Source: Eledone cirrhosa (taxonomy: Eukaryota). From it: a stretch of 64,000 nucleotides of DNA. The translations under genes and the position numbers were made by a program. Shown here one piece after another: positions 27,510-60,479 of this stretch (positions are counted from its first letter, which is position 1; every line of letters starts with the position of its first letter). The stretch is from positions 2,108,001 to 2,172,000 of the forward strand of contig OZ024743.1 of the NCBI GenBank assembly GCA_964016885.1, in the 5' to 3' direction. Below the pieces are notes generated by a model that made no database searches, was not told the DNA's origin, and saw only the letters and a program-made list of their open reading frames with translations.

Positions 27510-30375
27510 TCTAGAGAGAAAACAAAATTTATCCCACTAAATTATCTTTTGATAAAATAGTTTGTATACCACAACAAATAGATGACGAAACAGATGCACA
27601 GTTTACCATAGCTAGAAATAAACTTAGACAGGTAGTAGACCAATATACTAAGAGAGAAAGCAGACCAGAAATCCAACAACTTGGAAGGAAACCTGTAGAA
27701 GGCCTACTTAGCCTCAAGCAGCGCACAAGGGATGGAGAGATAGTGTGTCTACCCACAGATAAATCTGGTAGGATGTCAATAGACAGTATGCCGAACTATA
27801 TCAAGGCTATGCAACCCCACATCATCAACACGAGCGAAACAACACAAAAAACACACGAGGAGAGAGAAGATCCTCAACGCTCACATAAGATGTGGACCGA
27901 CATCCTAAACCAGGCATACGCACTGCCAACAACTTCCAGGCGTCTAACAATGACATATCACTCTTGTATGGGTTCCGCAAAGACCATAAGGCAACTGATG
28001 ACCCGACGACAGGACAACCAACAAGACCTGTATGCGGAGCCAATATTGCTAGCAACTACAGGATCTCCTATTTTCTCTCGATGGTTATACACTCCATAAT
28101 TAAGATGTCCCCAGATATATGTGACAGTACAGATATATGTGACTGTATTGATTCTGCTGAGGAGGTCCTCAGCAGAATCAATGAGTGCAACAAAAACAAA
28201 AACTTAACTAACTACATAATAGGCAGTATGGATGTGGTATCACTGTACCCATCCATTAACATTGATTTTGCTGTGGGAAAATGTTGTGGAAATAATCAGT
28301 GAGAGCGAAGTGGAATTCTGCGACGTCGACACAAATGAACAGGGTCCCATACTTAGACTTACTTATGACACCGAGTACCTAGATGACCATGACCTTAGCT
28401 GTTTCTGCCCCAGTAGACCCATAGGTGGTAGAGCCCCCAACATAACCTCAAAGGCTAAAAAGACTCCCATGGGAAGATGGAATGAATGGACCAAAGTCAT
28501 ACGGACACCCATAAACAATGATCAAGTTAGAAAAATGGTCGCACATGCAATAGGGGCTAGTGTTAAAACTACCCTAAAGGGCCATGTGTTTAAATTTAAC
28601 GAAAAGATCTCCACCCAGAATGAGGGAGCAGCCATTGGCGTCAGCATAGCTGATGATGCTGCCAATCTATTTATGATATGGTGGGAAAGGAAACTCAAAG
28701 AACACCTTGAAGAGATCTCCATAGACCTCGTCATGTACTCTCGTTACGTAGACGATATTAATCTAGTAATAAGAATACCCCCACAAGAGAGTACTAATGA
28801 ACATGATTTAGAAGATAGCACAATGGAAAGCATCCAGCAGATAGCTAACTCCATACACCAGAGTATAACTGTGAGTGTTGACTACCCTTCCAAACACCTT
28901 AACAATAGGCTACCAGTACTAGACACGGAACTCTGGATTAACACTATAGACGAGAGGGCCCAAATTCTCCACTCACACTATGCTAAACCCATGGCCTCCA
29001 AATACCTGATACTCAAAAACTCAGCAATATCAAATAGTGCTAAGTTTAATATTCTGATCGCAGACTTGGTACGAGTGATGAAGAACGTGTCCCGCATGTG
29101 CGACCCAACTGAAATGGAAAGCCACATCTAACACTTCATCAACCGCATCCAGTTCTCTGGCTACAACTAAAGAGACACAATCAGAGTATACAAAGGAACC
29201 ACGGGGAAGTATAAAACCCTCATAGAAATGGCCACGAAAGGAATTTGCCCATTATACAGGAGCAAATCATGGAATAGCTTAGATAGGACTAAACATAAGA
29301 TAGGGAAAGCCACTTCATGGTACAACAACCAGAGATACCAGAGTGTCATGTTCGTGGATTCTACCCCTGGGGAGAAATTAGCTAACCAATGTATAAAGGC
29401 CCTAAGAAAGGCCCACTTAAAGATTAAAGTGGTAGAAAAGCCAGGAACTACCATAAAATCCCATGATCAACAAAACATACCCCCTTAAGAAAACCCACTG
29501 TACTAATAAGAAATGTGTTATATGTAAAATGAACCCCCAGATAAACTGTAAAACTAGAAATGTAGTCTATAACATAAGATGTACAGAGGGTACGTGCAGA
29601 AACATGACAACGACATACATAGGTGAGACAGCTCGTAGCATAGGTGAAAGGATAGACCAACACTGGAGGGAACTAAAAGGACAAATAAACGGTTCAGTAC
29701 TATACGAACACGCCAGACAAAGACATGGGGGTTATATAGACAATATAGAAATTAAAATATTTAAACATAGAAATGACCCAACAGGTAGGCAAATCAGAGA
29801 AGCAAGTGAAATAGAGTTTAGAAGACCAACGTTAAACAGAAAAAACGAATGGAATAACAACAACCATACCCAAACAAACAATACTGACTTAAGGGAAATA
29901 TAAATAAATAAATAAATATATATATACACAAGTACAATAACAACAAACACATATAAACACACACTAGTAAACAAAGATAGAATACAAAAACCAAAACACA
30001 TACATTCAAACACGAACACACACACCAAACATTATACACACACGCAAACGCATGCGCAGAGACGGAGACAAGAAGAAATAAATAAATAAAATAAAAATGG
30101 CGTAGACATTACAATAGAATACAATCGGAAGGAACATAATAATAGTACCACTGATGATGTTGCAGATGTGCAACGAAAGAACTTTGATAGACTATATATA
30201 TATATTTATATCTGTATTTTTAACCGTTGGTCATCAATGATAAACGTTGATTGCTAAATAAATTAACTATGGATATATAAAAGATACAGAAGCGAAAACC
30301 AACCAAACTGTGAGTGTGTTCTGTTATTATGTTTAGCAATATTATTACAATATGACCCTCTCCAAGTATAACAAT
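27510..30375 (+). mobile_element. Penelope-like retroelement family A, copy 1 (5'-truncated, frameshifted RT + GIY-YIG, 3' pLTR with HHR)
   Basis: ORF pieces show PTDKSGR, SMDVVSLYPSI, GAAIG, YSRYVDD, LPVLD and CxxxxCxxC...NVVYNIRC...YIGET...ER..QH (GIY-YIG). Ends in ATGACCCTCTCCAAGTATAACAAT-(AT)n and is flanked by (TA)n on both sides. Confidence 0.93.
30146..30189 (+). ncRNA. Minimal type I hammerhead ribozyme in the family A pLTR
   Basis: TACCA-CTGATGA-T-GTTGCA/GATG/TGCAAC-GAAAG-AA-CTT-TGATA: both core boxes and a perfect 6-bp stem II. Confidence 0.8.
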
Positions 30376-31128: not shown

Positions 31129-32892
31129 TTATTTTTTAGATCGACACAGGCAGACTTGGAATTTGGGTGTCTTATTACTTGCGCAAATGTCTAGATGTGC
31201 ACTTAGTGGTATTTGTCTCGTGGTTGGATCTCGTAATTGTTGGCGATGAACTGTCATTCTGTTTCTGAGTGTGAGTTTAGTTTGTCCTATATAATCTTCA
31301 TTGCATCCTTTACATTTAATGGCATAAATTAGATTTTTTGATGAGCAAGTGAAGTGATTTTTTACAGTAAAATTTTGTCCTGATTTAAATGTATACGTGT
31401 TGCCTTCAATGAGGTGAGTGCAGGTTCCACAATTAGAGCGACCACATTTTTTGATACTTGGTTGTGGGTTTGTGGTAGGTAATTTGGCATTGGTGAGTAA
31501 TGTTTTCAGTGATTTTGGTTGTCTTTTGCTTTTGATTATTTTGTGTGTTTCAAGGGCTTTTTTCATTCTTGGGTTTTGTTTTAGTAGTGGGATGTTATTG
31601 TGAATAGTGTTGTAAGCTTCCGCATTTCTTGGGTTGTGTGTTGAGATATATGATAGAATATTGGACGTACCTTGAATTTGTTTCTGTTTCCGTAATTCAT
31701 CAATGCCTATTGCTTTAGCCCTTTCTATTCCATTATTTATTAGTAATAGTGGGTACTCTCTCTCAAGTAGAATTTCCTTTAATTCTTGAAGTCTTTTATT
31801 TCGCGTTTCATAATTGGAGACAATTGTGCAAATTCTTCTTGCTAGGTTAAAAGGAATGTTCGTCTTCGTGTGCTTTGGATGGTTGGAGGTGAATAGCAGA
31901 TATTGTTTGGAATCTGTTGGTTTGTAGTGTATGTCAGTTTCGATATTTGTGTCTTTTTTTGTGATTAAGATGTCCAGAAATGGGAGTTGATCTTGGCTGT
32001 ATTCCATTGTGAATTGGATGTGATTATTGATGCCGTTTATTAAGTTTTTGAAATCCTTCAGTTGGTCGAGTGTGTGGGACCAAAGAATGAGGCAATCATC
32101 CCAGTAGCGTTTCCAATTCTCTGATAAATATTTGTGGAAGTTCAATCCGTATTTTGATTTGGACTGTTCATATATCTGGACTTCTAAGTATGCCATGACT
32201 AAGTTGGCATAAGTTGGAGCGGCTTTTGTGCCCATCGCAGTCCCCGATATTTGCTTGTAAGTATTGCCATCGAAATCAAAAAAGTTGTTCTGTAGGATGA
32301 ATTTTAATCCCTCGGTGATGAAGCTTTTTTCTATTCTGTCAGGTATCTCATTGGGATATTTCTCTAGCCAGAATCCTATTGCTTCTAGTCCGTATTGGTG
32401 TGGGATCGTTGTGTAGAGATTCACTACATCGAAAGACACAATAATAGTGTCGTTGTTGACATGTTTGGGGAGGTGGTTTAAGAGGTCCAGATCGTCTCTT
32501 ACAAGGCTTGGTATGTGTTTCAGTATTGGTTTCAGTAGTATGTCTATAAAGTTGCTCAATCTGTGTGTTTCACATTGTGGGCCCGCTACAATTGGTCTTA
32601 ATTTAAGGTCTGTGGGGTATTGTGTGTTCACGCAGGCTGAGGTGGATTGTTTACAGGCATCGTTGATTATTTTACATTTGTGGATCTTCGGAAGTCCGTA
32701 AAGGTTGCTGGTTTTGTATTCAAAATTTGTTAAATAATCGCGTTCCTTTTTAGTTAGGTCTTCCTGGTATCGATAAATCAGTGTGTTTAATTTGGTCATT
32801 ATTTTTGATTGCTGGTAGTTTTTTACTCTTTCATAGTAATTAGCATTTTGTAAGAGAGAGAACATAGAATTTTTATATTTTTCAGCCTCCAT
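31129..32892 (-). mobile_element. Penelope-like element family B (Neptune-like): 587-aa RT + partial GIY-YIG, truncated at both ends
   Basis: LYGLPKIHK, LRPIV, SFDVVNLYT, GTAMGT, RYWDD, LPFLD, KPTD..QYL...SNHP and CGRSNCGTC...FTCSSKNLIYAIKC..C..YIGQT. The ORF ends before the GIY-YIG domain is complete. Confidence 0.93.
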
Positions 32893-32894
32893 AA

Positions 32895-33168
32895 TGACGC
32901 GAAATTTATAATAATGGCGCGAAATTTATTATAATTATTGACAAACCAATCAAATTACTTCTCGAAAAACCTGGTTTTCGAGCCAGTTTTTCCATATAAA
33001 ACAAGTAACATTTAGAGACCAACCAGATGTGAGAAAAACCACAGACCCTCCATCTCAACTCACCTTTTGAAAAGCAGAAGAACTGCGAAACCGGTAAAGG
33101 AACCAAATAAATATATATATTTTTAAAAAAATAAGACTTCAGTTGCATTTTCGATTTCATCCCTTTTT

Positions 33169-36750: not shown

Positions 36751-37083
36751 TGTGTTTCTGCATAGAACAATAAAAAAAAGGCCAGAAGTCAGAGGTAGGT
36801 TGTTAATTAGTTAATTGTTTTACGATCGTTTCAGAGGGTCGATTGGTCGTGGAAGATCGATGTATTGATCAGCATGGTAGTGGATAGACTGCTACCAATT
36901 TCTAGTCGATCGAACAGGTATTTGAAGACAAGAAATAGGTAGCAGCCTAACCACTACCATCTACTCGATACATCGATGTCCACGATCAATTGACTCTCTG
37001 AAACGATCGTAAAACAATATACTAATTAACTACCTACCTCTAACTTCTATCTTTTTTTTTTCATTGTTCTATGCTCAAACACA
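36751..37083. repeat. Imperfect ~330-bp fold-back unit next to (TA)/(TG)n, carrying only the 3' half of an HHR
   Basis: Arms GCATAGAACAAT...TTTTACGATCGTTTCAGAG... and ...CTCTGAAACGATCGTAAAA...ATTGTTCTATGC. GAAAC-GATC-GTA at 37000. Confidence 0.85.
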
Positions 37084-37261: not shown

Positions 37262-37396
37262 AAGGTTTTATTTAAAATTGTTGGGTTACAACAAGTAAAT
37301 ATTTTATAACTGATATAAAGCACTCGACAAGTTTTTGGAGTATATATACGATATTAAACAAATGGAAACTATATTTATAAAACCATATTTATTTCA

Positions 37397-37452
37397 TTAT
37401 ACATATTTCAGGGATACCATATTAAAAATATGGCATGCCTTCGTCAGATAAA
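37397..37452 (-). ncRNA. Type I HHR (mirror copy)
   Basis: Reverse complement of the motif at 37594-37649. Confidence 0.75.
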
Positions 37453-37593
37453 ATACAATATATAAACAGTTTTATAAATAATTTTGACGTACCATATTAT
37501 AAGCGACCATTAAATTAGGAAGCTGTCTAATTTAATGGTCGCTTATAATATGGTACGTCAAAATTATTTATAAAACTGTTTATATATTGTATT

Positions 37594-37649
37594 TTATCTG
37601 ACGAAGGCATGCCATATTTTTAATATGGTATCCCTGAAATATGTATAAT
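37594..37649 (+). ncRNA. Type I HHR
   Basis: TTAT-CTGACGA-AGGCATGCCATATT/TTT/AATATGGTATCCCT-GAAA-TATGT-ATAA. Confidence 0.75.
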
Positions 37650-37696
37650 GACATAAATATGGTTTTATAAATATAGTTTCCATTTGTTTAATATCG

Positions 37697-37760
<64 letters not shown>

Positions 37761-37766
<6 letters not shown>

Positions 37767-38129
37767 TTAAAGGAGAAAATGAATTGCGTCCGTAGGCGGT
37801 ATGCCGATATGAGTACTCGATGCTCGTGGGGAGCTGAGTATCAATAATAATATATGTGTGTTAACATGTAAAACTCGCGTCTAAGAGTGGTTTAGACGCG
37901 AGTTTACATGTTAACATTATATCTGAGGATGCCAGAGTCAGGATCGATCATCAATCGATCGTTCCTCGAGCTGATGTACAGTGAAACATATGTAATATGT
38001 AATTAAATATGGATATGATGCAACACCGATTCTTTGTTCCCTTATATATTATTATTGATACTCAGCTCCCCACGAGCATCGAGTACTCATATCGGCATAC
38101 CGCCTACGGACGCAATTCATTTTCTCTAA

Positions 38130-38521: not shown

Positions 38522-38577
38522 ACTGCCTGATGAGGTCATAGCCATTCAATGGCTATCATCGAAATATATATAGCAGT
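38522..38577 (+). ncRNA. Type I HHR (same family as 58680-58734)
   Basis: ACTGC-CTGATGA-GGTCATAGCC/ATTCAAT/GGCTATCATC-GAAA-TATATATA-GCAGT, followed by an AATAA-type signal and then (TA)n(GA)n. Confidence 0.85.
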
Positions 38578-38793: not shown

Positions 38794-39652
<859 letters not shown>

Positions 39653-40367: not shown

Positions 40368-41420
40368 TTAGTGAAAATGAAAGTTAGGGTTAGTTGTTAC
40401 CGTGATGAAATAAGATGGCTTTCCCGTGTGTCGAACCACAGTCATCGAATTCTGAAAGCACTCACTGTAGAAGCGAGGGAAACCATAGATTGAAGGAAGA
40501 AGAACAATTCTCCGGCCTGCATTTACTGAATCTCCTTCAGCCACAGCATCATACAAACCCTCATACTTTTCAGCTCGTATCATGTTACGGGCCCATTTGA
40601 GGCGACAATGTTCTATTTTTGCCTGGGCATCTACAGCATATTGCTGCATCAGCCGCCTGCTCTTCATGATAATGTTACAGTTACCTTGCCTAACCTGAAA
40701 CCGATAACAGTAGAAATCAGTGGGTGTGAGTATCTGGTTGTTGTCAATCCTTTTCAAACCATCCTGAAACCCATCATTCCCCCAAGGAAACAGCATCACG
40801 TAATGCAGAGGATCATAAGAACGGTGCAACTGATGAATCCTCTGAAGACCACCATCTCTTTTATGAATGATGACATCCAAAAGACTTAATGCTGTATCAG
40901 GTTGGATAACAGCAATCTCAGATGCCATGGGAAGATTATATGTACGACAATGAAAATCAGTGGGTTTTACTTTGTCAGCATGTAGGACAATATTCACATT
41001 TTAAGAGACTGGCATTCCAGTGACTGCCTTGAAGCTTCTTATATAGGTGTTGCAGTAGTGCAAGTTTTTTTTCAGGTCCTGCAGAACAGCAGCATCTAAA
41101 TTAGCATGGTGCAAGCGGTTCTGAAGCTCATGGTCTGTATCATAGAAGTAAAGCTGCGCAAACTTTGGTGAAGCATCACTTGGAAGTAGTGATCCAATAA
41201 TATGACAAATCTTACCTTGGATCTTAAATGTGGGACTAAATCCTGGTGCTTTAATCTCTTTGCAACCAATTGAAGCTAAGGCAAGCACATTGTTATATGC
41301 CCGTATCTTATGGAGAAAATAATTTCCTGCTTGAGTGATAGCGAAATATTTCAGTATATTTGGTGGAGGAGGAGGAAATTGAGGGAGTTTCCTTTTTCCC
41401 TGGAAGCAACACAAAGATTT
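40368..41420 (-). mobile_element. Helitron RepHel fragment (Helitron_like_N region), pseudogenised
   Basis: IRAYNNVLALAS, FKIQGKICH.IGSLLP, FAQLYFYD, YDPLHYVMLFPWG, RLMQQYAVD..AKIE..RL, IRAEKY and GKP.YFIT.T.NP, with an in-frame stop near 41001. Confidence 0.9.
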
Positions 41421-41788
41421 GAGTTCATGTGACCAGAGAAGAGACTCCCTGCATTATGTTGTGGCATTATGGAAAGAACAGTTTGCTCTTGGAAAGGTTC
41501 CTCTGTAGGATTCTTTGCCAGACCTTCAATAGACCTGTTCCTTCCTCTCTGAACGTTTGGTGTATTTGTTACAAGTTGTTGTTAGTGTGTTAACTGAATT
41601 ACATTTGTAGAAATTTGTTGGGATGTTGTAGAGCGATTATTGTTTGATTGATTTGCCCTCATCTCTCTTTGTCGTTGTGCGTCTGTTGCCATTCGTTGGG
41701 ATTTAGATGTTCACTTTCTGTCATGTATGTATAAATATATGTTATCTCTACGGTGAAATCTTAGAAATAAATATATGTTAAAACAAAA

Positions 41789-42450: not shown

Positions 42451-43169
42451 CTATTTTCGTGTAAGTTACCAGGCATAGCGAGGACTCTGGAAACTTATTA
42501 AAAAAATAATTCAGTGGAAAGGAAATCCTAGCCATTGAGAAAATCACTGCCTCTACGTCTGTGGCAAATTCAAAAACAATCAATCACGTGACATCGAGGT
42601 CAATCAGTGGAAAGCGAGTTGTTAATAAGACAGCAGCCTGCCTACTACTATAGCAGCAGTCATGGCCAATATTGCTCGACAAATGAAATATATATACATA
42701 CAATATTTTGAAAAGCTAACACACCAGAGAGAGATACAGTGCGCTATAAATAAAACAGGGAAAAACCACCAGTGTATGGAATCTATAACCTATGAAAGGC
42801 AGAGTAGACACGATAATTAAAAATATAAATTAAAACGTAAATAAATACCTCTATAACTATATAACACACGTACAAATCCAAAGGGATCTGTTTCTCCAGT
42901 AAGTTGTTGACAGAAATGAAATAACCCCGGTTCGTCAGCGTGTGTAAGGCTATACATTTCAGACAACACTAAGAGAATTTTAAAGTGACTTTCCAGCTAC
43001 ACGTGGGAGAGAGAAGTCACAGCGTGTTTAAGGGCAATGAACCAGTGGCCTCTGAGGGACGAGCTGCTAGAAAGGGTAGCCAGAAACCACTCAGAGAAGT
43101 GTGCTCAACCAAACAGAGAGAGAGGGAAATATCACGATAGATTAACGGAACCATAGACTCTCGCCATTC

Positions 43170-43221
<52 letters not shown>

Positions 43222-43249
43222 TGTATAAGTAGAAAGGAAAAGAAAATGG

Positions 43250-44425
43250 TGACACTCAGTGCTATTTTTCTGTATTCCCGTATTTTGATTTGGGATCTAT
43301 GGACAGTCATGCGTTGGCGGAGGCTGTTTTTAGTCTGGCCTATGTATTGTTCTCGACAACCTGAGCAAGTTAATACATATATTAGGTTTTCTGATGCGCA
43401 TGTGAAATTGTGTTTTACTATAAAACGTTGTCCTTGTTTGAAGTAGAATTCCGAACACTCTATTAGGTTGATGCAGTACTTTGGCATGTGTTAGGATGTT
43501 TTTCATTGACTTAGATTGTCTTTTGCTCTTTATGATATCGTGTGTTCGAAGGATTTGGTTCATTCTATGGTCCTTTTTCAATACAGGGATGTTCTGGAGG
43601 ATGGTGTCAAAGGCCTCATTGTTGAGGGTGTTGTGTGTGGAGATGTATGGAAGAGCTTTTAGTTTCGCTTGGTTAATTTTAGGGTGTCTAAGGTCCTGGG
43701 TACTGAGTTTTAGAGCACGTAGGATTCCATTGTCAATTAGTGATGCAGGGTAGTCCCTGCTTATGAGTGTGTCCTTTAGTTCTTGTAGACGTAAGTAACG
43801 GGTGTTTTTATTGGAGACTATAGTACAGATTCTCTTGGCTAAGTTGTAGGGAATATTAATTTTAACTTGTCTAGGGTGGCATGAATTGAAAGGAAGATAT
43901 TGCTTGGAGTCTGTGGGCTTGTAGTATATGTCTGTTTCTATTTTTTGTTATGAATCTTAATGAGAATGTCGAGGAAGGGAAGTTGTTGATGGCTGTATTC
44001 CATTGTAAAATTAATATTCGTGTTGAGCCCATTTATAAGGGTGTGAAATTCTTTAAGTTTCTCGATGTTTTCGTGCCAAAGGATGAAGCAGTCATCTAGA
44101 TATCTCTTCCAGTTCGTTTCCAGGTATCTCATGACTAGGTTAGCATAAGTGGGGGCCGTTTTCGTTCCCATAACGGTCCCAGATGTCTGCCTATAGAATT
44201 TGTTATTGAAAACGAAGTAATTATTCTCCAAAATAAATTTGAGTCCTTCTATCACGAATTCTTTTTTGATGCGTTGTGGGAGTTCATTGTGGTAATTATC
44301 CAGCCAGAATTGGATAGCTTCTATTCCTAGGTTGTGGGGGATGTTGGAGTATAGGTTGACTACATCGAGCGTCACTAGCAGGGTTTGTTCAGTAAGGGGT
44401 ATATTAGGGAGGCGGTTGAGCATTT
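43250..44425 (-). mobile_element. Penelope-like family B (Neptune-like) decayed fragment: RT, thumb, partial GIY-YIG
   Basis: TLDVVNLYSNIPH, GTVMGTKTAPTYANLVM, WKRYLDD, LPFLD and FTCASENLIYVLTCSGC.EQYIGQT. Clearly homologous to 31129-32892, with frameshifts. Confidence 0.9.
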
Positions 44426-44574
44426 GAGCATTGTTGTTATGACAATACTATACATCATTTCACCGCTTTTGTTATTGATGTTATTGATATTCTTTTGAGA
44501 GAATCGTTTTTGCAAATGACTGAAAATATCGAATAAGGTACGCCATTTTTAACAGAACCACAAAAATACTGGTC

Positions 44575-49675: not shown

Positions 49676-52600
49676 ATTGTTATACTTTGGGAGGGTCATG
49701 TTGCCAATAAGAAACACACGCACCAGTTGCTTTCACTTCAATTTATTATAATAAATTTATAAATTTAGGAATTTACAAATTTCTGGTTGGTTGGTTGGTT
49801 CCACAACCAGATAGTTGTTTATATATTGTCAAAGTTCTTTCGTCACACATTCTGTGACCTCTTCAGTGACTGGGGATTCTTTTCTTTGTTTTTGTGCCCC
49901 TCCTTTGTTCTGTCCTACGCCATTTTGTTTCTGTGTGTGTGTGTTGTGTGCTCAGTCTGCGCATGCGCCACATCCGGGTGTCTGTGTGTGTTTATATTTG
50001 TTTATTTATTTGTTTATTTACATGTTACCGGTTGGTTGTTTGTTCTATGTGTGTGTGTGTTTTCATTTTGTCCTTAATTGTAAATTGTGATGTTGCTGTT
50101 CCACTCATATTTTCTATTTAATTTTGGTTGTAATTCTTTTATGTTTATTGCCTCTGTGATTTGTCTAAACATTGCGTCTTTTCTGTGTGTAGATTCTATT
50201 TTTATTTCTATGTTCTCTAATTTACCCTTATGTTCTATTTTAGCATGTTGGTAGAGTACAGATGATTCTTTACTATCTTGAAGGTCTCGCCAGTGTTCAT
50301 TTATCCGTTCCCCTACACTACGAGCTGTCTCACCTATGTACACTATATTTTTGTCTCTACATTGTCCTTCAGTACATCTTATGCTATACACTACATTTCT
50401 AGTTTTACAGTTAATATGGGGGCTTATTTTACAGGTTATACATTTCTTATCTATACAGGGGGGTCTTTGGAAAGGGTATGTCTTGCTAATAAGTGTTTTT
50501 ACGGAGGTACCTGGTCTTTCTACTATCTTAATATTGAGTTTATGTTTAGCTAGGGCCCTTCTAAATTTGTAAGCTAATTCACCTCTAGGGGTTGTATCGA
50601 TGAACATTACACTCTGGTATTTATTGCTATCATACCATGAGTTTATTCTATTAGCCTTATTCCTAGTTCTTTCTATTCTATTCCAAAATTTGCTCCTATA
50701 CAAGGGGCAGGTCCCATTTGTGTCATTATTTACCATTTTCCCATTTGGTTCTGGCTCCTCTATACACTCTGATTCTATCTCTCTGATTGTAACCAGAGAA
50801 CTGCATACGGTGGATGAAGTGTTGTATGTATCTCTCTAGTTCTTCGGGGTTGCACATGCGGGACACGTTTCTCATCACCCGTACCAAATCCGCAATCAGT
50901 ATGTTGATTTTGGTATGGTCCGAAACAGCCGAGTTTCAGTGGATCAGATGTTTGGAAGTCATGGGTTTGGCATAATGGGAATGGAGGATTTGTTTTTTGT
51001 TATTAATGGTATCTAACCAGAGCTCTGTGTCTAGTACAAGTAATCGATGGTTTGGGTGGTTACTTGGGTAGTCTATAGTAACTCTAATACTCTGGTGGAT
51101 GGAGTTAGCTATTTGCTGGATGCTTTCCATTGTGTTTTTCTCTAGTTCCTGACTGTTCTCTAGTGGGGGTGTCTTAACTACGATGTTTATATCGTCAACG
51201 TAGCGGGAGTACATTATCAGGGTTAAGGGGTCTTCTAATTGTTCTTTAAGTTTAAGTTTAAGTCTACTGTCCCACCATACCATGAATAAGTTAGCTACAT
51301 CGCCTGCAATTCTAACACCAATGGCTGCTCCTTCCTCTTGGGCATATGTTTTTCCATTAAATTTTAACATATGTTCCTTAAGGGTTAGTTTTATGCTGGC
51401 CCCTACCACATGTGCAATCATTTTCTTCAGTTCATCGTGGTTTTCGGGTGTCCGTATGGCTCTGGTCCATCCGTTCCATCTATCTGTGTGGGTTTTCTTG
51501 GTCATTGAGGTAATGGTAGGTGCTCTGCCTCTTGCTGGTCTTGTAGGGCACAGGTTGCTAAGGTCATATGTGTCTAGGTAATTATTACTATAGGTAAGTT
51601 TAAGTAGGAGTCCCAGCTCACTGGTATCAATCCCACGGAACTCAACATTGCTCTCACTGATCAGTTCTACGCATTTCTCCACAGCAAAATCCACGTCAAT
51701 AGATGGATACAGGGACACAACATCCATACTACCTATTATGCAGTTTATTAGGTCCCTAGATCGGTTACTCTCGCCGATTCTGCTGAGGAGGTCCTCCGTG
51801 CTGTCACATACATCTGGGGACATTTCAATGATGGGGCGTATGATCAGGGAGAGGAAGTAGGACAGTCTGTAGTTACTAGCAATGTTAGCCCCACAGACTG
51901 GCCGTGTTGGTGGTCCCGTGACAGGGTCACTGCCCGTGTTATGGTCTTTTCGAATCCCATACAACGCCGGCACGTCATTGTTCCAGGCCTGGAAGTTGTT
52001 GGCAGTCCTTTTGTTGGGCTGCATTATATTCGTCCACATCACCATATGAGCATTGAGGGCTTTTTCTCTATCCTCATGCTCCTGTGGTGTTACCTCTCTT
52101 GTGTTAGTGATGTGGGGTTGCATTGCCTGGATGTAGTCTGGCAGGCTGTCAACCGACATTCTGCCAGACTTGTCTGTTGGAAAGCATGCTATCTCTCCAT
52201 TACGTGAGCGCTGCATGAGCTTACACAAGCCATTTGCAGATTTTTCTCCCAGTTGCTGGGCCTCCATTCTATTATGCTTCTTGCTATACTGTTCTATAAT
52301 ATTTCTAAGTTCGGATTTAGCTATAATAAATTGTGCTTCTGTTTGTTCATCGACCTGCGACGGAAATTGCGTGCGTTTGTTAAATGGTAAAGTCGTGGCG
52401 TGGACTCGTCGCAGGTCGAACGACTTATAGGAGGGATTATAAAAAGTAGAGTTCCAGGCTGCTGCTTTATGTGTACTAGTGCTATTGTTATTGTTAGTTG
52501 TGTTGTTTCTATTTCTATTTCTATTTCCACCAACAGCCTCATGGTTGTTTCTATGTCTCTCATAATTACTCCTGTCTCTTTCCACTGGCTCATTGTTATT

Positions 52601-52700
52601 ATCTACTCTATTTTGTGTGTCTGTGTGTTCGTCTTGGTTATTTTCTTTGTCCATAGTCTCCCTTCTCCTATTTTTAATTTCATTCGCACCGTTTCCTTTC
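49676..52700 (-). mobile_element. Penelope-like family A, copy 2 (most complete; one stop, one frameshift)
   Basis: 606-aa RT ORF (SMDVVSLYPSI, YSRYVDD) continues past a TGA at 50936 and a frameshift near 50740 into a 220-aa GIY-YIG ORF (NVVYSIRC...YIGET). The 3' end ATGACCCTCCCAAAGTATAACAAT matches copy 1. Confidence 0.95.
49828..49870 (-). ncRNA. Minimal type I HHR in the family A pLTR
   Basis: Reverse complement: GTCA-CTGAAGA-G-GTCACA/GAATG/TGTGAC-GAAAG-AA-CTT-TGAC. Same position as the HHR at 30146. Confidence 0.88.
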
Positions 52701-52760
52701 GCTATATGTCTCTCCACCACTCCCCTACACGCCCTTTTAACTCTGTTCCCACACACTTCT

Positions 52761-52909: not shown

Positions 52910-54232
<1,323 letters not shown>

Positions 54233-55530
54233 AACTCTGGTCTGATTAAACCGTTTCATAAATTGAATGAAAATCTCAAGTACGTAAATGTTGGGTCTAA
54301 CCACCCCATCTCTATAATTAAATCTATCCCTAAACATATTTCCCTTAGAATCTCGGGTCTATCTTCTAACATGCAAGTATTTAAGGAACACGCCGAGTAC
54401 TACGATAACGCCCTTACTAAAGCAGGCTACCTCAACAAAATAGAGTATATAGATGAGAACAATCAAAACACCCAAAATAAATCCCACATAGGTAGATATA
54501 ATAACACAACACCAAACCACACTTACTACCATAGTATACACACCAGTAAACCAACAAACAAAACTAATAGAAAGCGATGCAAAGAGTACTTATGGTATAA
54601 CCCTGAATACAATAGTTCCATTAGTACAAATTTACCAGTACTCTTCTTTAAAATAATTAAGAGACATTTTCCTACATCACACAAATACCACAAAATCCTA
54701 AACCCTACCACTATAAGACTGTCATACTCTACAGCGTTAAACCTTGAACAACACATAAAAAAGATCAATACTAAAAGGTTAAACGAAAACACTAAAAACT
54801 TAAGTACAAAGAACACAAAAAAAACAGTAGACAATACACTACAGAACACAAATAAACCACACCTAAGTTCGTCCGCAATACTACTCCAGAGTAAACCCAA
54901 CGTACACAACTGTAACTGCACCTATCCTGACAACTGCCCCCTTGGCAATAACTGCCTGGAAAAAAATATCATTTATAAGTGTACCATTAAATCCGGAGGC
55001 AACGAATGGTATTACGTGGGATCAACGGCAACATTGTTTAAATCTCGATTATATAGGCATTCTTACTCAATAAAACACCAGAGCCAAAGAAATGTAACAA
55101 CTTTAGCAGAAAAAGCTTGGACGCTCAGGGATAGCGATCAAAAGTTTACCCTAAAATGGGAGAAATTAGCTAAAACCCAAAGCTTTTCCAGGAGCCAAAA
55201 TTTCTGCAAATTGTGTAATCTTGAGATTTATTACATAATCACACACAAGAAGAAATTGCTTAATAACAGAATTGAACGAACATTATTCTGCCGTCACCGA
55301 ACTAAAACCCTTTTTTCCCACTACAAGCTGAATATTACATAAAAGAGGGACATCCCCCCAACTATATAAACCTCAATCTAGTTAGAAAAATATAAAAACA
55401 ATCTCTTCTCAACATATATATGTATATTAATAACCTTAAATTACCACACTAATAATGGATAGATATGCTGATGAGAATAGGTGCGAATATGTTATAATGA
55501 ATGTGTCTAAAAGCGACCATATGTATGTAT
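54233..55530 (+). mobile_element. Penelope-like family C (probably Naiad-like) 3' fragment: thumb, linker, GIY-YIG
   Basis: 359-aa ORF with SNHP, WYNP.YN, RHFP..HKYHKI.N..TIRLSYS, CNC...CPL..NCL, IIYKC...YVGST, CKLC..E and CRH. A decayed HHR lies at 55463-55522. Clade assigned from recalled motifs only. Confidence 0.85.
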
Positions 55531-57104: not shown

Positions 57105-57572
57105 GAAGAAAGTGTTGTATGGTTGATGTAGAGAGAGGCGGAGAGTTTGGTGGTAATGAATAGAGTGAGAGGATTGATAGAGATAGGTATTGATAAATAT
57201 AGAGAGGGGAAGAGTTTGTGTTTATTGATATAGAGAGGGGGAATACCGTGTAGTAGATATAGAGAGGGGGAGAATTTGTTGTTTTTTTTCATATACAGAG
57301 AGGGATAATGGGAGAGTGCCGTGTAGTAGATATAGAGAGGGTGAGAGTTTAGGGGTGATTGATATCCAGGGGGGGGGGGGGGGATTGGGAATGATAAGTG
57401 TAGATATTTATAGAGAGTAAGAGAATGTATTAGTCTTAGATATAGAGAGTGGGAAAAGAGAGGCGGTGTCGTGGAAGATATAGAGAGGGGTAGAGTTTGG
57501 TTTTAGTAGATACAGAGAGGGGGATTAAAAGAGAATATTGTGTGATAGACATAGAAAAGGGGAGAGTTTGAT
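57105..57572. repeat. Degenerate purine-rich minisatellite built on GATATAGAGAGGGG..AGAGTTTG
   Basis: The motif recurs about 12 times at roughly 30-40-bp spacing. Confidence 0.7.
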
Positions 57573-57946
57573 GGCACTCTCGAGACCTAAATAATAGGAG
57601 GGGGGACTTAGAAAATCAGTAATTGTATAGTGTACGTTCGTAAATATGGGATTTCTTGTAATGTTCTTCTTTTGTCATATATAATGTGTTTTTAATTTAA
57701 AATAAAATCATCATTAGATTCTCCAGCTACTGTATCAATATGAATCACTTACAATAACATTTCGCCGGAGACAGAGTAACAAAATTTAATAAGCGGGTGG
57801 AGGGGGGGGGGGATAAAAACCGGGGTTGGGGAATCTGACAAATTAATAAGCAGGGTGTGGGGACGATTATTCAAGACCTGGGAGTACGTGAATTATTAAC
57901 GGACGTAAGAATGAAAACTCAATACCGATGTAGAGTTTAAATATTC

Positions 57947-58069: not shown

Positions 58070-58123
<54 letters not shown>

Positions 58124-58264
58124 AGTTTATGTTGGTTGTATACCAACACCTCAGTATGCAGGCTGGAGCACTCGACGAAGTGCGCAGGTTGGTTTGGTTA
58201 CTCCGGAGTAGTGTAAAATAAAGTTAAATAAAAGTCAAATGATTAAAATTTAGCTTCGTTTATT

Positions 58265-58319
58265 ACTGCTATATATATTTCAGTGACAGCCATCTTTGGC
58301 TGTGACCTCTTCAGGCAGT
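58265..58319 (-). ncRNA. Type I HHR (mirror copy)
   Basis: Exact reverse complement of 58680-58734. Confidence 0.85.
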
Positions 58320-58679
58320 TTGAATTAGTATGGTATAGACAAGTACATATGTTGTTTAGGTGTATGATATTGTCAATACTCTGATATGCCCAGTTCCTTG
58401 TTGGGTTGTTAATTCACTGGGGAACTGGAGTTCCCCAGTGAATTAACAACTCCAGTTCCCCAGTGAATTAACAACCCAACAAGGAACTGGGCATATCAGA
58501 GTATTGACAATATCATACACCTGACAATATCATCACTGGGGAACTGGAGTTCCCCAGTGAATTAACAACTCCAGTTCCCCAGTGAATTAACAACCCAACA
58601 AGGAACTGGGCATATCAGAGTATTGACAATATCATACACCTAAACAACATATGTACTTGTCTATACCATACTAATTCAA

Positions 58680-58734
58680 ACTGCCTGAAGAGGTCACAGC
58701 CAAAGATGGCTGTCACTGAAATATATATAGCAGT
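58680..58734 (+). ncRNA. Type I HHR
   Basis: ACTGC-CTGAAGA-GGTCACAGCC/AAAGAT/GGCTGTCACT-GAAA-TATATATA-GCAGT, followed by AATAAA. Confidence 0.85.
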
Positions 58735-58785
58735 AATAAACGAAGCTAAATTTTAATCATTTGACTTTTATTTAACTTTATTTTA

Positions 58786-58931
<146 letters not shown>

Positions 58932-59020
58932 TATAGTAATAATAATAAAATTGAAGACTAAAATCCAAAGAGGGCTCGATAAGGAAAATATATATCAAAT
59001 ATATAAGAACCGTAGAGCAA

Positions 59021-59169
59021 ATATTTATTAAAATAACAGATTAAAGTTTAAGCAAAGAATCGCTGCTTTCACCCTTAACGGGATCTTCTGAAACTAACCT
59101 TCAGTTTCAGAAGATCCCGTTAAGGGTGAAAGCAGCGATTCTTTGCTTAAACTTTAATCTGTTATTTTA

Positions 59170-59177
<8 letters not shown>
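59021..59177. repeat. Perfect palindrome, 75-bp arms, 7-nt loop, with an HHR-like remnant
   Basis: Arms 59021-59095 and 59103-59177. Contains CAGAAGA-T-CCC/GTTAA/GGG-T-GAAAGC. The right end is (TA)n. Confidence 0.92.
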
Positions 59178-59272: not shown

Positions 59273-59470
59273 TATAAGGAAAAAAGATAAAATCGAAAAT
59301 GCAACTGGAGTCTTATTTAAAAAAATATATATATATTTATTTGGTTCGTTTGGTTCCTTGAGATAGAGGGTCTGTGGTTTTTTTCTCAAGGAACCAAACG
59401 AACCAAATAAATATATATATATTTTTTTAAATAAGACTCCAGTTGCATTTTCGATTTTATCTTTTTTCCT

Positions 59471-59474
<4 letters not shown>
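59273..59474. repeat. Perfect palindrome, 91-bp arms, derived from the family B pLTR terminus
   Basis: Arms 59273-59363 and 59384-59474. The right arm matches 33097-33175 and the loop is the reverse complement of ~33034-33056. Confidence 0.92.
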
Positions 59475-59860: not shown

Positions 59861-60122
59861 CAAAGAGCTAAACTAATCACTGCAAATAAATAGTCCAAAT
59901 TTACATTTCCCCACCACTACCACTACTCCCTAATTTAAAAATGCTTCCAAAGAGCTAAACTAATCACTGCAAATAAATAGTCCAAATTTACATTTCCCCA
60001 CCACTACCACTACTCCCTAATTTAAAAATGCTTCCAAAGAGCTAAACTAATCACTGCAAATAAATAGTCCAAATTTACATTTCCCCACCACTACCACTAC
60101 TCCCTAATTTAGAAATGCTTCC
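59861..60122. repeat. 87-bp tandem triplication, possibly inside a degenerate TIR element (59691-60132)
   Basis: CAAAGAGCTAAACTAATCAC... starts at 59861, 59948 and 60035. The outer TAGTGGCGGTGGAAC and CTTCCACCGAGCCTA are partly complementary. Confidence 0.85.
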
Positions 60123-60479
60123 ACCGAGCCTAGTATTCCTGTTTATATGTGTTCATGTGTATAATATATTTTTTCTGTTTTTCTGTGTATTTATTAATAT
60201 ATATGAACGTATGTTTATAATTCTAACGCTTTCGGAAGAGTTATTTTCCCTTGTATTAAATTTTAATATTCAAATAATCTTCACCAAGCGTTTATAGAAC
60301 AACGTTTTTTCTTCAATAGCAATTATATTTCTCTTTGTTTCTGAAGATGTCTCTGAAATATTAAACATTTCTCTCAATGAGATGTCATATCTTCCTTATT
60401 TTAAACAGTATAGCATGGTGTATAAACATATTTTGATGACATATATTATCCGTAGTATTATAAATCACTTGAGAGATGT

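What the first reader, a model, noticed from the sequence alone, without database searches (positions are those of the whole stretch)
58214..58785. Young double-ribozyme hairpin with template-switch footprints in its centre
Seen: two apparently identical 217-bp arms, each with a full HHR followed by AATAAA, facing outward. The centre has a local palindrome (CACTGGGGAACT-GG-AGTTCCCCAGTG), a short re-copied patch (TGACAATATCAT) and a ~108-bp direct duplication (58414-58522 and 58533-58641). Inference: repeated snap-back and re-priming by the RT during a single, very recent insertion.
Basis: partly seen in the sequence, partly recalled or inferred. Interest (0 to 1): 0.7.

Follow-up and report, generated by a model that had tools for sequence, protein, structure and literature searches.

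The report
Penelope hairpin insertion with re-copied centre
This hairpin is one of at least 1,389 head-to-head stubs of a known kind of jumping gene (a Penelope-like element) in this genome, and its cluttered middle is likely the scar left where two freshly copied DNA ends were joined after several false starts, so it is an ordinary, well-preserved example rather than a new system.

Summary
The sequence features are real: 219-nt identical arms, two outward hammerhead motifs, a central palindrome, a 12-nt re-copy and a 109-nt duplication. The insertion spans 58119-58785 inside (TA)n.

It is a 5'-truncated, inverted insertion of a high-copy Hydra-type Penelope-like element. The genome holds 5,948 exact hammerhead cores and 1,389 outward pairs; 50 of 50 sampled pairs carry the tail on one arm only. 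Longer copies encode RT plus GIY-YIG with the Hydra motifs. Head-to-head arms, junction palindromes, the one-sided tail and a self-priming model are all in print.

The centre parses into four junctions. Two recur at other loci, and removing one 119-nt period gives another locus's centre. The duplication re-copies two chimeric junctions, so it was likely copied from DNA in one step, not by repeated snap-back on RNA. Whether RT or host repair did it is open. Reads could not validate this locus. The scan found this element class before on other DNA of this genome.

The parts
58075..58119 (.). (TA)n target microsatellite, left flank
58119..58213 (-). 95-nt 'tail' of the left arm (element positions about +101..+195 from hammerhead C3); in the long copy L031 the same sequence runs on into the 5' UTR and ORF start
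58214..58432 (-). left arm of the inverted repeat: pLTR 3' part, positions +100..-117
58265..58319 (-). type I hammerhead motif (stem I 5 bp, stem II 10 bp with a C-C mismatch and G-U closing pair, 2-bp stem III with palindromic loop)
58405..58450 (.). junction J1: strand inversion at about -114/-112 on 3-nt microhomology, giving the local palindrome; followed by a short sense patch (-112..-93)
   Evidence: recurs in L049, L052, L093
58448..58522 (+). junction J2 (jump back to -117 on 2-nt microhomology) and sense run -117..-44
   Evidence: J2 recurs in L052, L053
58522..58533 (+). junctions J3/J4: 10-12-nt re-copied patch (about -60..-49) bridging into the duplicated block; J3 is unique in the genome
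58533..58641 (+). second copy of 58414-58522, including J1 and J2 (119-nt period)
58567..58785 (+). right (short, tail-less) arm: positions -117..+100, ending on TTTA in (TA)n
58680..58734 (+). type I hammerhead motif, identical to the left one
58784..58935 (.). (TA)n target microsatellite, right flank

Best explanation
This is an inverted, 5'-truncated insertion of a high-copy Penelope-like retroelement with Hydra-clade motifs, sitting in a (TA)n run, and its centre is likely the scar of joining two new cDNA ends during or just after insertion. Steps: (1, inferred) the element's GIY-YIG nuclease cuts both strands in (TA)n. (2, inferred; like Poseidon_Ac in vitro) RT primes from both target ends on RNA of one source copy, once at the tail end (+195) and once at +100, giving one tailed and one short arm (the two end points are shown). 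(3, shown as a distribution) most arms stop near -120, at the self-complementary word TCATATGA, where two identical cDNAs would anneal and give a clean palindrome. (4, inferred) here both stopped at about -117, just short of that word, and were joined on 1-3-nt microhomologies: inversion J1, 20 nt of synthesis, re-priming J2, 74 nt, a 10-nt slip J3, then one slip back by 119 nt (J4) onto DNA that already held J1 and J2, and on to the end. Steps J2-J4 copy DNA, not RNA; RT or host polymerase theta could do this.
For: Family: 5,948 exact 32-nt cores, control 0; 1,389 outward pairs with 20-500 nt between; RT + GIY-YIG ORF pieces between pLTRs in L031-L033. First 50 pairs: tail on exactly one arm in 50 of 50, (TA)n after the short arm in 49 of 50 and after the tail in 49 of 50; 62 of 100 arm ends in -132..-109; 377 loci have the clean TCATATGA centre. 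Solo copies L001, L002, L004 join -122/-115 straight to (TA)n, so the stop does not need a hairpin. Two primings: the short arm reaches more than 10 nt further 5' than the tailed arm in 12 of 50 pairs, and in L016 and L033 the arms do not overlap at all; fold-back of one cDNA cannot give these without a later deletion. Nested series: removing one 119-nt period gives L052's 251-nt centre (6 substitutions, 5 at subfamily sites), removing 25 nt more gives L049's (2 substitutions). Re-copied patches of 11 nt or more occur in 5 of 50 unbiased centres and 20 of 49 long centres, some of the latter being native repeats or foreign inserts. Duplications of about 100 nt in L135 and L145 are as diverged as their arms (4/102 vs 7/180; 9/123 vs 7/180). 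PMC11167929 (parts 1-2 read): both strands cut and extended, two RT start sites bounding the tail, dimer predicted.
Against: Clean-centred pairs look somewhat younger than the others (9 vs 41 pairs; arm differences p=0.015, tail distance to nearest copy p=0.079), as later host revision would predict. In L046 and L114 the duplicate copies are closer than the arms (0/42 vs 7/180; 2/85 vs 10/180). Arms share the subfamily haplotype nearly everywhere (2 or more diagnostic differences in only 5 of 99 pairs), which fold-back explains as easily. One-sided deletions could mimic the 'two primings' cases. In this locus both arms end at the same place, so it does not itself separate annealing from fold-back. 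No read evidence for J1-J4.
Confidence: 0.55

Rival explanations
1. Same element, but it inserted as a clean palindrome centred on TCATATGA; the host later nicked the hairpin tip and repaired it by microhomology end joining, with a small central deletion, templated patches and a 119-nt tandem duplication.
For: All junctions lie within about 10 nt of the usual centre or are local copies. Clean centres trend younger. Short direct and inverted templated insertions from repeated re-alignment are described as footprints of polymerase theta (PMC9962433, passages). Instability of long palindromes is recalled; my search for it gave no directly relevant paper.
Against: Complex centres occur among pairs with no arm difference (window, L030, L077, L129, L133), so revision must be very fast. 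377 clean centres persist, about half of the first 50 listed in the other subfamily. Solo copies stop at the same place.
Confidence: 0.25
2. First reader's model (close to the self-priming model of PMC3846280): one RT repeatedly folds its product back and re-primes, making J1 and J2 twice over in one run.
For: Junction palindromes in head-to-head PLE copies were read as self-priming (PMC3846280, passages). J1 followed by J2 arose independently in L052, so the pair is a preferred path. L077 and L118 repeat one junction 3 times.
Against: J1 would need a 2-3-bp stem with a 2-4-nt loop. J1 is found at about 4 other loci and J1+J2 at 1, against 1,389 pairs, so an exact repeat is unlikely compared with one copy from DNA. 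Fold-back alone does not give the one-sided tail plus longer short arm in 12 of 50 pairs.
Confidence: 0.12
3. The hairpin is real but the 119-nt duplication at this locus is a sequencing or assembly error.
For: The two copies are 100% identical; hairpins are hard to sequence; J3 is unique in the assembly; none of 4 runs covered 58526-58567.
Against: The runs are not known to be from the same individual and hold at most 0.60 of the stretch's words. Similar duplications at other loci have since diverged (L135, L145), so they are biological. A 10-nt templated bridge is not a typical consensus error (inference).
Confidence: 0.08

Closest known systems
Hydra clade of C-terminal-endonuclease Penelope-like elements (Craig et al. 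2021, PMC8557442; section 11, passages and three supplement look-ups seen)
   Same: RWK, DKT, CxCX5C linker, CxxC and CxH around the conserved E/N, no CCHH, hammerhead, (TA)n targeting, inverted 5'-truncated copy, one-sided tail.
   Different: Tail 95 nt rather than 30-40; unit about 4.1 kb hammerhead to hammerhead rather than under 3 kb; this family's hammerhead motif was not found in the part of the supplement held (cut when stored); no tree made.
Penelope insertions of Adineta vaga (Arkhipova et al. 2013, PMC3846280; passages seen)
   Same: Head-to-head inverted pLTRs, palindromes at the inverted junction, optional tail, microhomology 5' junctions.
   Different: Low copy there; self-priming proposed; multi-step re-copied centres and a fixed stop at a self-complementary word are not in the passages seen.
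Poseidon_Ac in vitro (Frangieh et al. 2024, PMC11167929; parts 1-2 of 4 read)
   Same: Two internal RT start sites bounding the tail, both target strands cut and extended, uncleaved hammerhead in the template, AT-rich target.
   Different: Different clade; how the new ends are joined was left unvalidated there.
PLE hammerheads with palindromic helix III (Cervera and de la Pena 2014, PMC4209133; passages seen)
   Same: Type I core, short helix I, long helix II, 2-bp helix III with palindromic loop, predicted to need a dimer.
   Different: This subfamily closes helix II with G-U instead of G-C; the two motifs are on opposite strands, so no single transcript of this locus carries both.
Templated insertions of polymerase theta-mediated end joining (PMC9962433; passages seen)
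   Same: Short direct and inverted local copies on 1-3-nt microhomology, made by repeated re-alignment.
   Different: Typical insertions there are 3-10 nt; patches here reach 20, 74 and 109 nt and lie inside a new retro-insertion.

Membership tests
EN+ Penelope-like element | Parent ORF with RT and C-terminal GIY-YIG nuclease | tested here: met
   L031-L033 ORF pieces with YRDD then VYG..YIG; Pfam GIY-YIG E 0.0007 but 20.2 bits, under the 22.6 cut-off, and no Pfam hit for the RT piece; 1,287 homologues, some with RT domains. All three copies are frameshifted.
EN+ Penelope-like element | Partial tandem forming pLTRs around the ORF | tested here: met
   L031: 431-nt repeat before the ORF and at the 3' end, 97.9%
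EN+ Penelope-like element | Inverted 5'-truncated copy and one-sided tail | tested here: met
   50 of 50 pairs; tail 95 nt, longer than the 30-40 nt described
EN+ Penelope-like element | Type I hammerhead in the pLTR | tested here: met
   descriptor and fold; not called by Rfam; cleavage untested
Hydra clade | RWK, DKT, CxCX5C, CxxC, CxH motifs | tested here: met
   all five in L031; EKT in L033
Hydra clade | No CCHH cysteine pair inside the GIY-YIG core | tested here: met
   one Cys only between VYG and YIG (read)
Hydra clade | Insertion into (TA)n | tested here: met
   49 of 50 at each end
Hydra clade | Generally under 3 kb | tested here: inconclusive
   ORF about 2.65 kb, unit about 4.1 kb in L031
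Hydra clade | RT phylogeny groups with Hydra references | not tested
   reference proteins were seen only as supplement text
Naiad | N-terminal nuclease, no canonical hammerhead | tested here: not met
   nuclease is C-terminal and a hammerhead is present
Non-LTR retrozyme | Head-to-tail tandem units each with a hammerhead | tested here: not met
   head-to-head pair; sequence is the pLTR of an ORF-bearing element
MITE / foldback DNA transposon | Equal terminal inverted repeats and a fixed interior | tested here: not met
   ends differ by the tail; centres vary from 44 to 489 nt in 99 pairs

The most novel reading that the evidence does not exclude
The family is a natural record of how Penelope-like elements make their inverted structure: an RT dimer primes both target strands at two fixed sites of one RNA, both cDNAs stop at a programmed point whose last letters (TCATATGA) are self-complementary and also match (TA)n, so they seal to each other (hairpin) or to the target (solo copy); when they stop short, the telomerase-related RT itself re-primes on its own DNA product again and again, as this locus shows in four steps.
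Probability: 0.3. Interest if true: 0.55.

Novelty: new member of a known kind. Interest (0 to 1): 0.24.

Why it matters
The locus itself is ordinary. Its use is as data: how PLEs form tandem and inverted structures is called unresolved in PMC8557442, and the in vitro work (PMC11167929) stops before end joining. Here more than a thousand young hairpins with fixed start points, a dominant stop at a self-complementary word and a nested series of junctions (L049, L052, this locus) allow two-strand priming, fold-back and later host repair to be told apart by counting. Three searches and a fourth found no paper in the held library that treats these centres this way; subscription papers are not covered.

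Tried and rejected
DNA search of the own genome with the 211-nt arm gave nothing, probably because common words are skipped; patterns worked. Rfam: no hammerhead, only hairpin-driven miRNA hits below gathering scores. Read check: no RNA holder listed; 4 runs laid, none spanning the locus, depth 0 at 58526-58567, uninformative; no second read check was obtained. My first guess, Naiad, was rejected on domain order. A loose definition of 'clean centre' (p=0.12) caught false positives and was replaced by a strict one. The twin-hairpin lead from earlier notes: small stems lie a few nt past both end points, but fold no better than shuffles (z +0.9 and -0.7). Paper searches for twin priming in PLEs (0 papers) and palindrome revision (1, not relevant by title and abstract start). 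Earlier-findings search on centre structure: 0. 10.64898/2026.07.22.740005: part 1 of 5 read, used only for the retrozyme definition.

Full report
Observation. All the stated features are in the sequence. The arms are 58214-58432 and 58567-58785, 219 nt and fully complementary; 58414-58522 is repeated at 58533-58641 (109 nt, exact); the local palindrome has 22-nt arms; the 12-nt patch at 58522-58533 copies 58505-58516. Each arm holds a type I hammerhead motif pointing outward (58680-58734 +, 58265-58319 -). My descriptor finds 5 such motifs in 24101-64000 against 0.01 in shuffles; the fold gives stems I and II. Rfam calls none, so the ribozyme rests on motif and fold, and cleavage is untested. 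Stem III is 2 bp with a palindromic loop, the form that PMC4209133 (passages) describes for PLEs as needing a dimer. Both ends sit in (TA)n.

What it belongs to. The 32-nt hammerhead core has 5,948 exact matches in the 3.0-Gb genome, control 0. [quoted passage not shown] The motifs RWK, DKT, CxCX5C, CxxC and CxH are present and the CCHH pair is not. This is the definition of the Hydra clade in PMC8557442 section 11, with (TA)n targeting. No tree was made, so clade membership rests on motifs. The window's tailed arm is 312/312 identical to copies at three other fetched loci: youngest subfamily.

The hairpin is the family's usual product. There are 1,389 outward hammerhead pairs with 20-500 nt between them, 116 of them with 270-500. 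I took the first 50 pairs listed (all on contig 1) as an unbiased sample. Exactly one arm has the tail in 50 of 50; (TA)n follows the short arm in 49 of 50 and the tail in 49 of 50. 62 of 100 arm ends fall at -132..-109 from hammerhead C3, around the self-complementary word TCATATGA at -124..-117, and 377 loci have a clean palindrome centred on it (these need not all be among the 1,389). Three solo copies join -122 or -115 directly to (TA)n. Inverted 5'-truncated copies and a one-sided tail are described in PMC8557442 (passages); head-to-head arms with junction palindromes, read as self-priming, in PMC3846280 (passages).

The centre. Against natural copy L031 it parses as antisense to about -114/-117, sense -112..-93, sense -117..-44, a 10-nt patch, antisense -100..-114, sense -112..-93, sense -117 to the end. 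That is four distinct junctions on 1-3-nt microhomologies, with J1 and J2 present twice. J1 recurs in L049, L052 and L093 and with one mismatch in L046; J2 recurs in L052 and L053; J3 is unique. Removing one 119-nt period gives a 251-nt centre collinear with L052 (6 substitutions, 5 at subfamily sites, so L052 likely arose independently); removing 25 nt more gives L049. Re-copied patches of 11 nt or more are in 5 of 50 unbiased centres and 20 of 49 long centres, though several of the latter are native repeats or foreign inserts; three control hairpins had none. L073, L075, L133 also flip strand more than once, and L114, L135, L145 hold duplications of 86-139 nt. This locus is at the complex end of a continuous range.

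Mechanism. J1 and J2 do not exist in element RNA, and each is rare, so their exact repeat is most simply one 119-nt slip back onto DNA that already held them (inference). That step is DNA-templated, and nothing here says whether RT or a host enzyme did it; PMC9962433 (passages) describes such direct and inverted templated patches for polymerase theta, usually shorter. For the arms, two primings fit best: the tail-less arm reaches over 10 nt further 5' than the tailed arm in 12 of 50 pairs (the reverse in 9), and in L016 and L033 the arms do not overlap. PMC11167929 shows a PLE protein cutting and extending both strands from two RNA sites that bound the tail. Against this reading: one-sided deletions could mimic those cases; arms share their haplotype almost always (2 or more diagnostic differences in 5 of 99 pairs); and clean centres trend younger (p=0.015 on arm differences, p=0.079 on tail distance, 9 vs 41 pairs), which favours later revision by the host. 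On timing the duplications are mixed: as old as their arms in L135 and L145, seemingly younger in L046 and L114. Complex centres also occur in pairs with no arm difference. I put joining at insertion at 0.55, later host revision at 0.25, repeated RT fold-back at 0.12 and mis-assembly of the duplication at 0.08. The identity as an inverted Hydra-type PLE stub is far firmer, about 0.95.

Validation. No run is known to be from the assembled individual; the best holds 0.60 of the words. Four runs gave no piece across the locus and no depth at 58526-58567. This neither supports nor refutes the duplication.

Earlier notes of the scan reached the same class for other stretches of this genome. I had that reading before the look-up. 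Their twin-hairpin lead fits in position here but not in folding strength.

Verdict. A new member of a known kind; a clean teaching example. The interest lies in the family as a test set for how PLE ends are joined, not in this locus.

Noticed in passing
window 37341-37704, 37773-38126, 38828-39477, 59021-59177, 59273-59474, 36814-37018: Further fold-back elements, most beside (TA)n; two carry hammerhead motifs of other families (37393-37452 -, 39219-39259 +) and several recur in other fetched loci. Likely stubs of other PLE families.
   Followed up: partly
window 38522-38577 (+): A diverged relative of the same hammerhead, with a C-G to T-A pair change in stem II and the same stem I and III.
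   Followed up: partly
window 54191-55342 (+): 383-aa stop-to-stop frame with a CxCX5C linker and GIY-YIG-like region: C-terminal half of another Hydra-type PLE. Other PLE-like RT/nuclease frames at 31129-32925, 43017-44447, 50074-52759, 27515-29131, 53181-54166.
   Followed up: no
window 40368-41453 (-): Two frames resembling Helitron Rep/helicase pieces (recalled resemblance, not tested).
   Followed up: no
window 1-24054: 28-bp satellite, about 860 copies, strong strand skew.
   Followed up: no
window 59861-60123; 57121-57578: Three near-identical 87-bp tandem copies; purine-rich repeats about 70 bp apart.
   Followed up: no
L095 (G000:C1:104946900-104948400): The two arms differ at three linked subfamily sites (-16, -7, -6): two RNA templates or gene conversion.
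   Followed up: partly
L121, L077, L146, L128, L040: A second stop near -182, again at a TA-rich spot, and a weaker one at -38/-39 beside a second 8-nt palindrome.
   Followed up: partly
L033, L038: Pairs of copies facing inward (3' end to 3' end) across a short (TA)n run: likely a second insertion into the TA run next to an earlier one.
   Followed up: no
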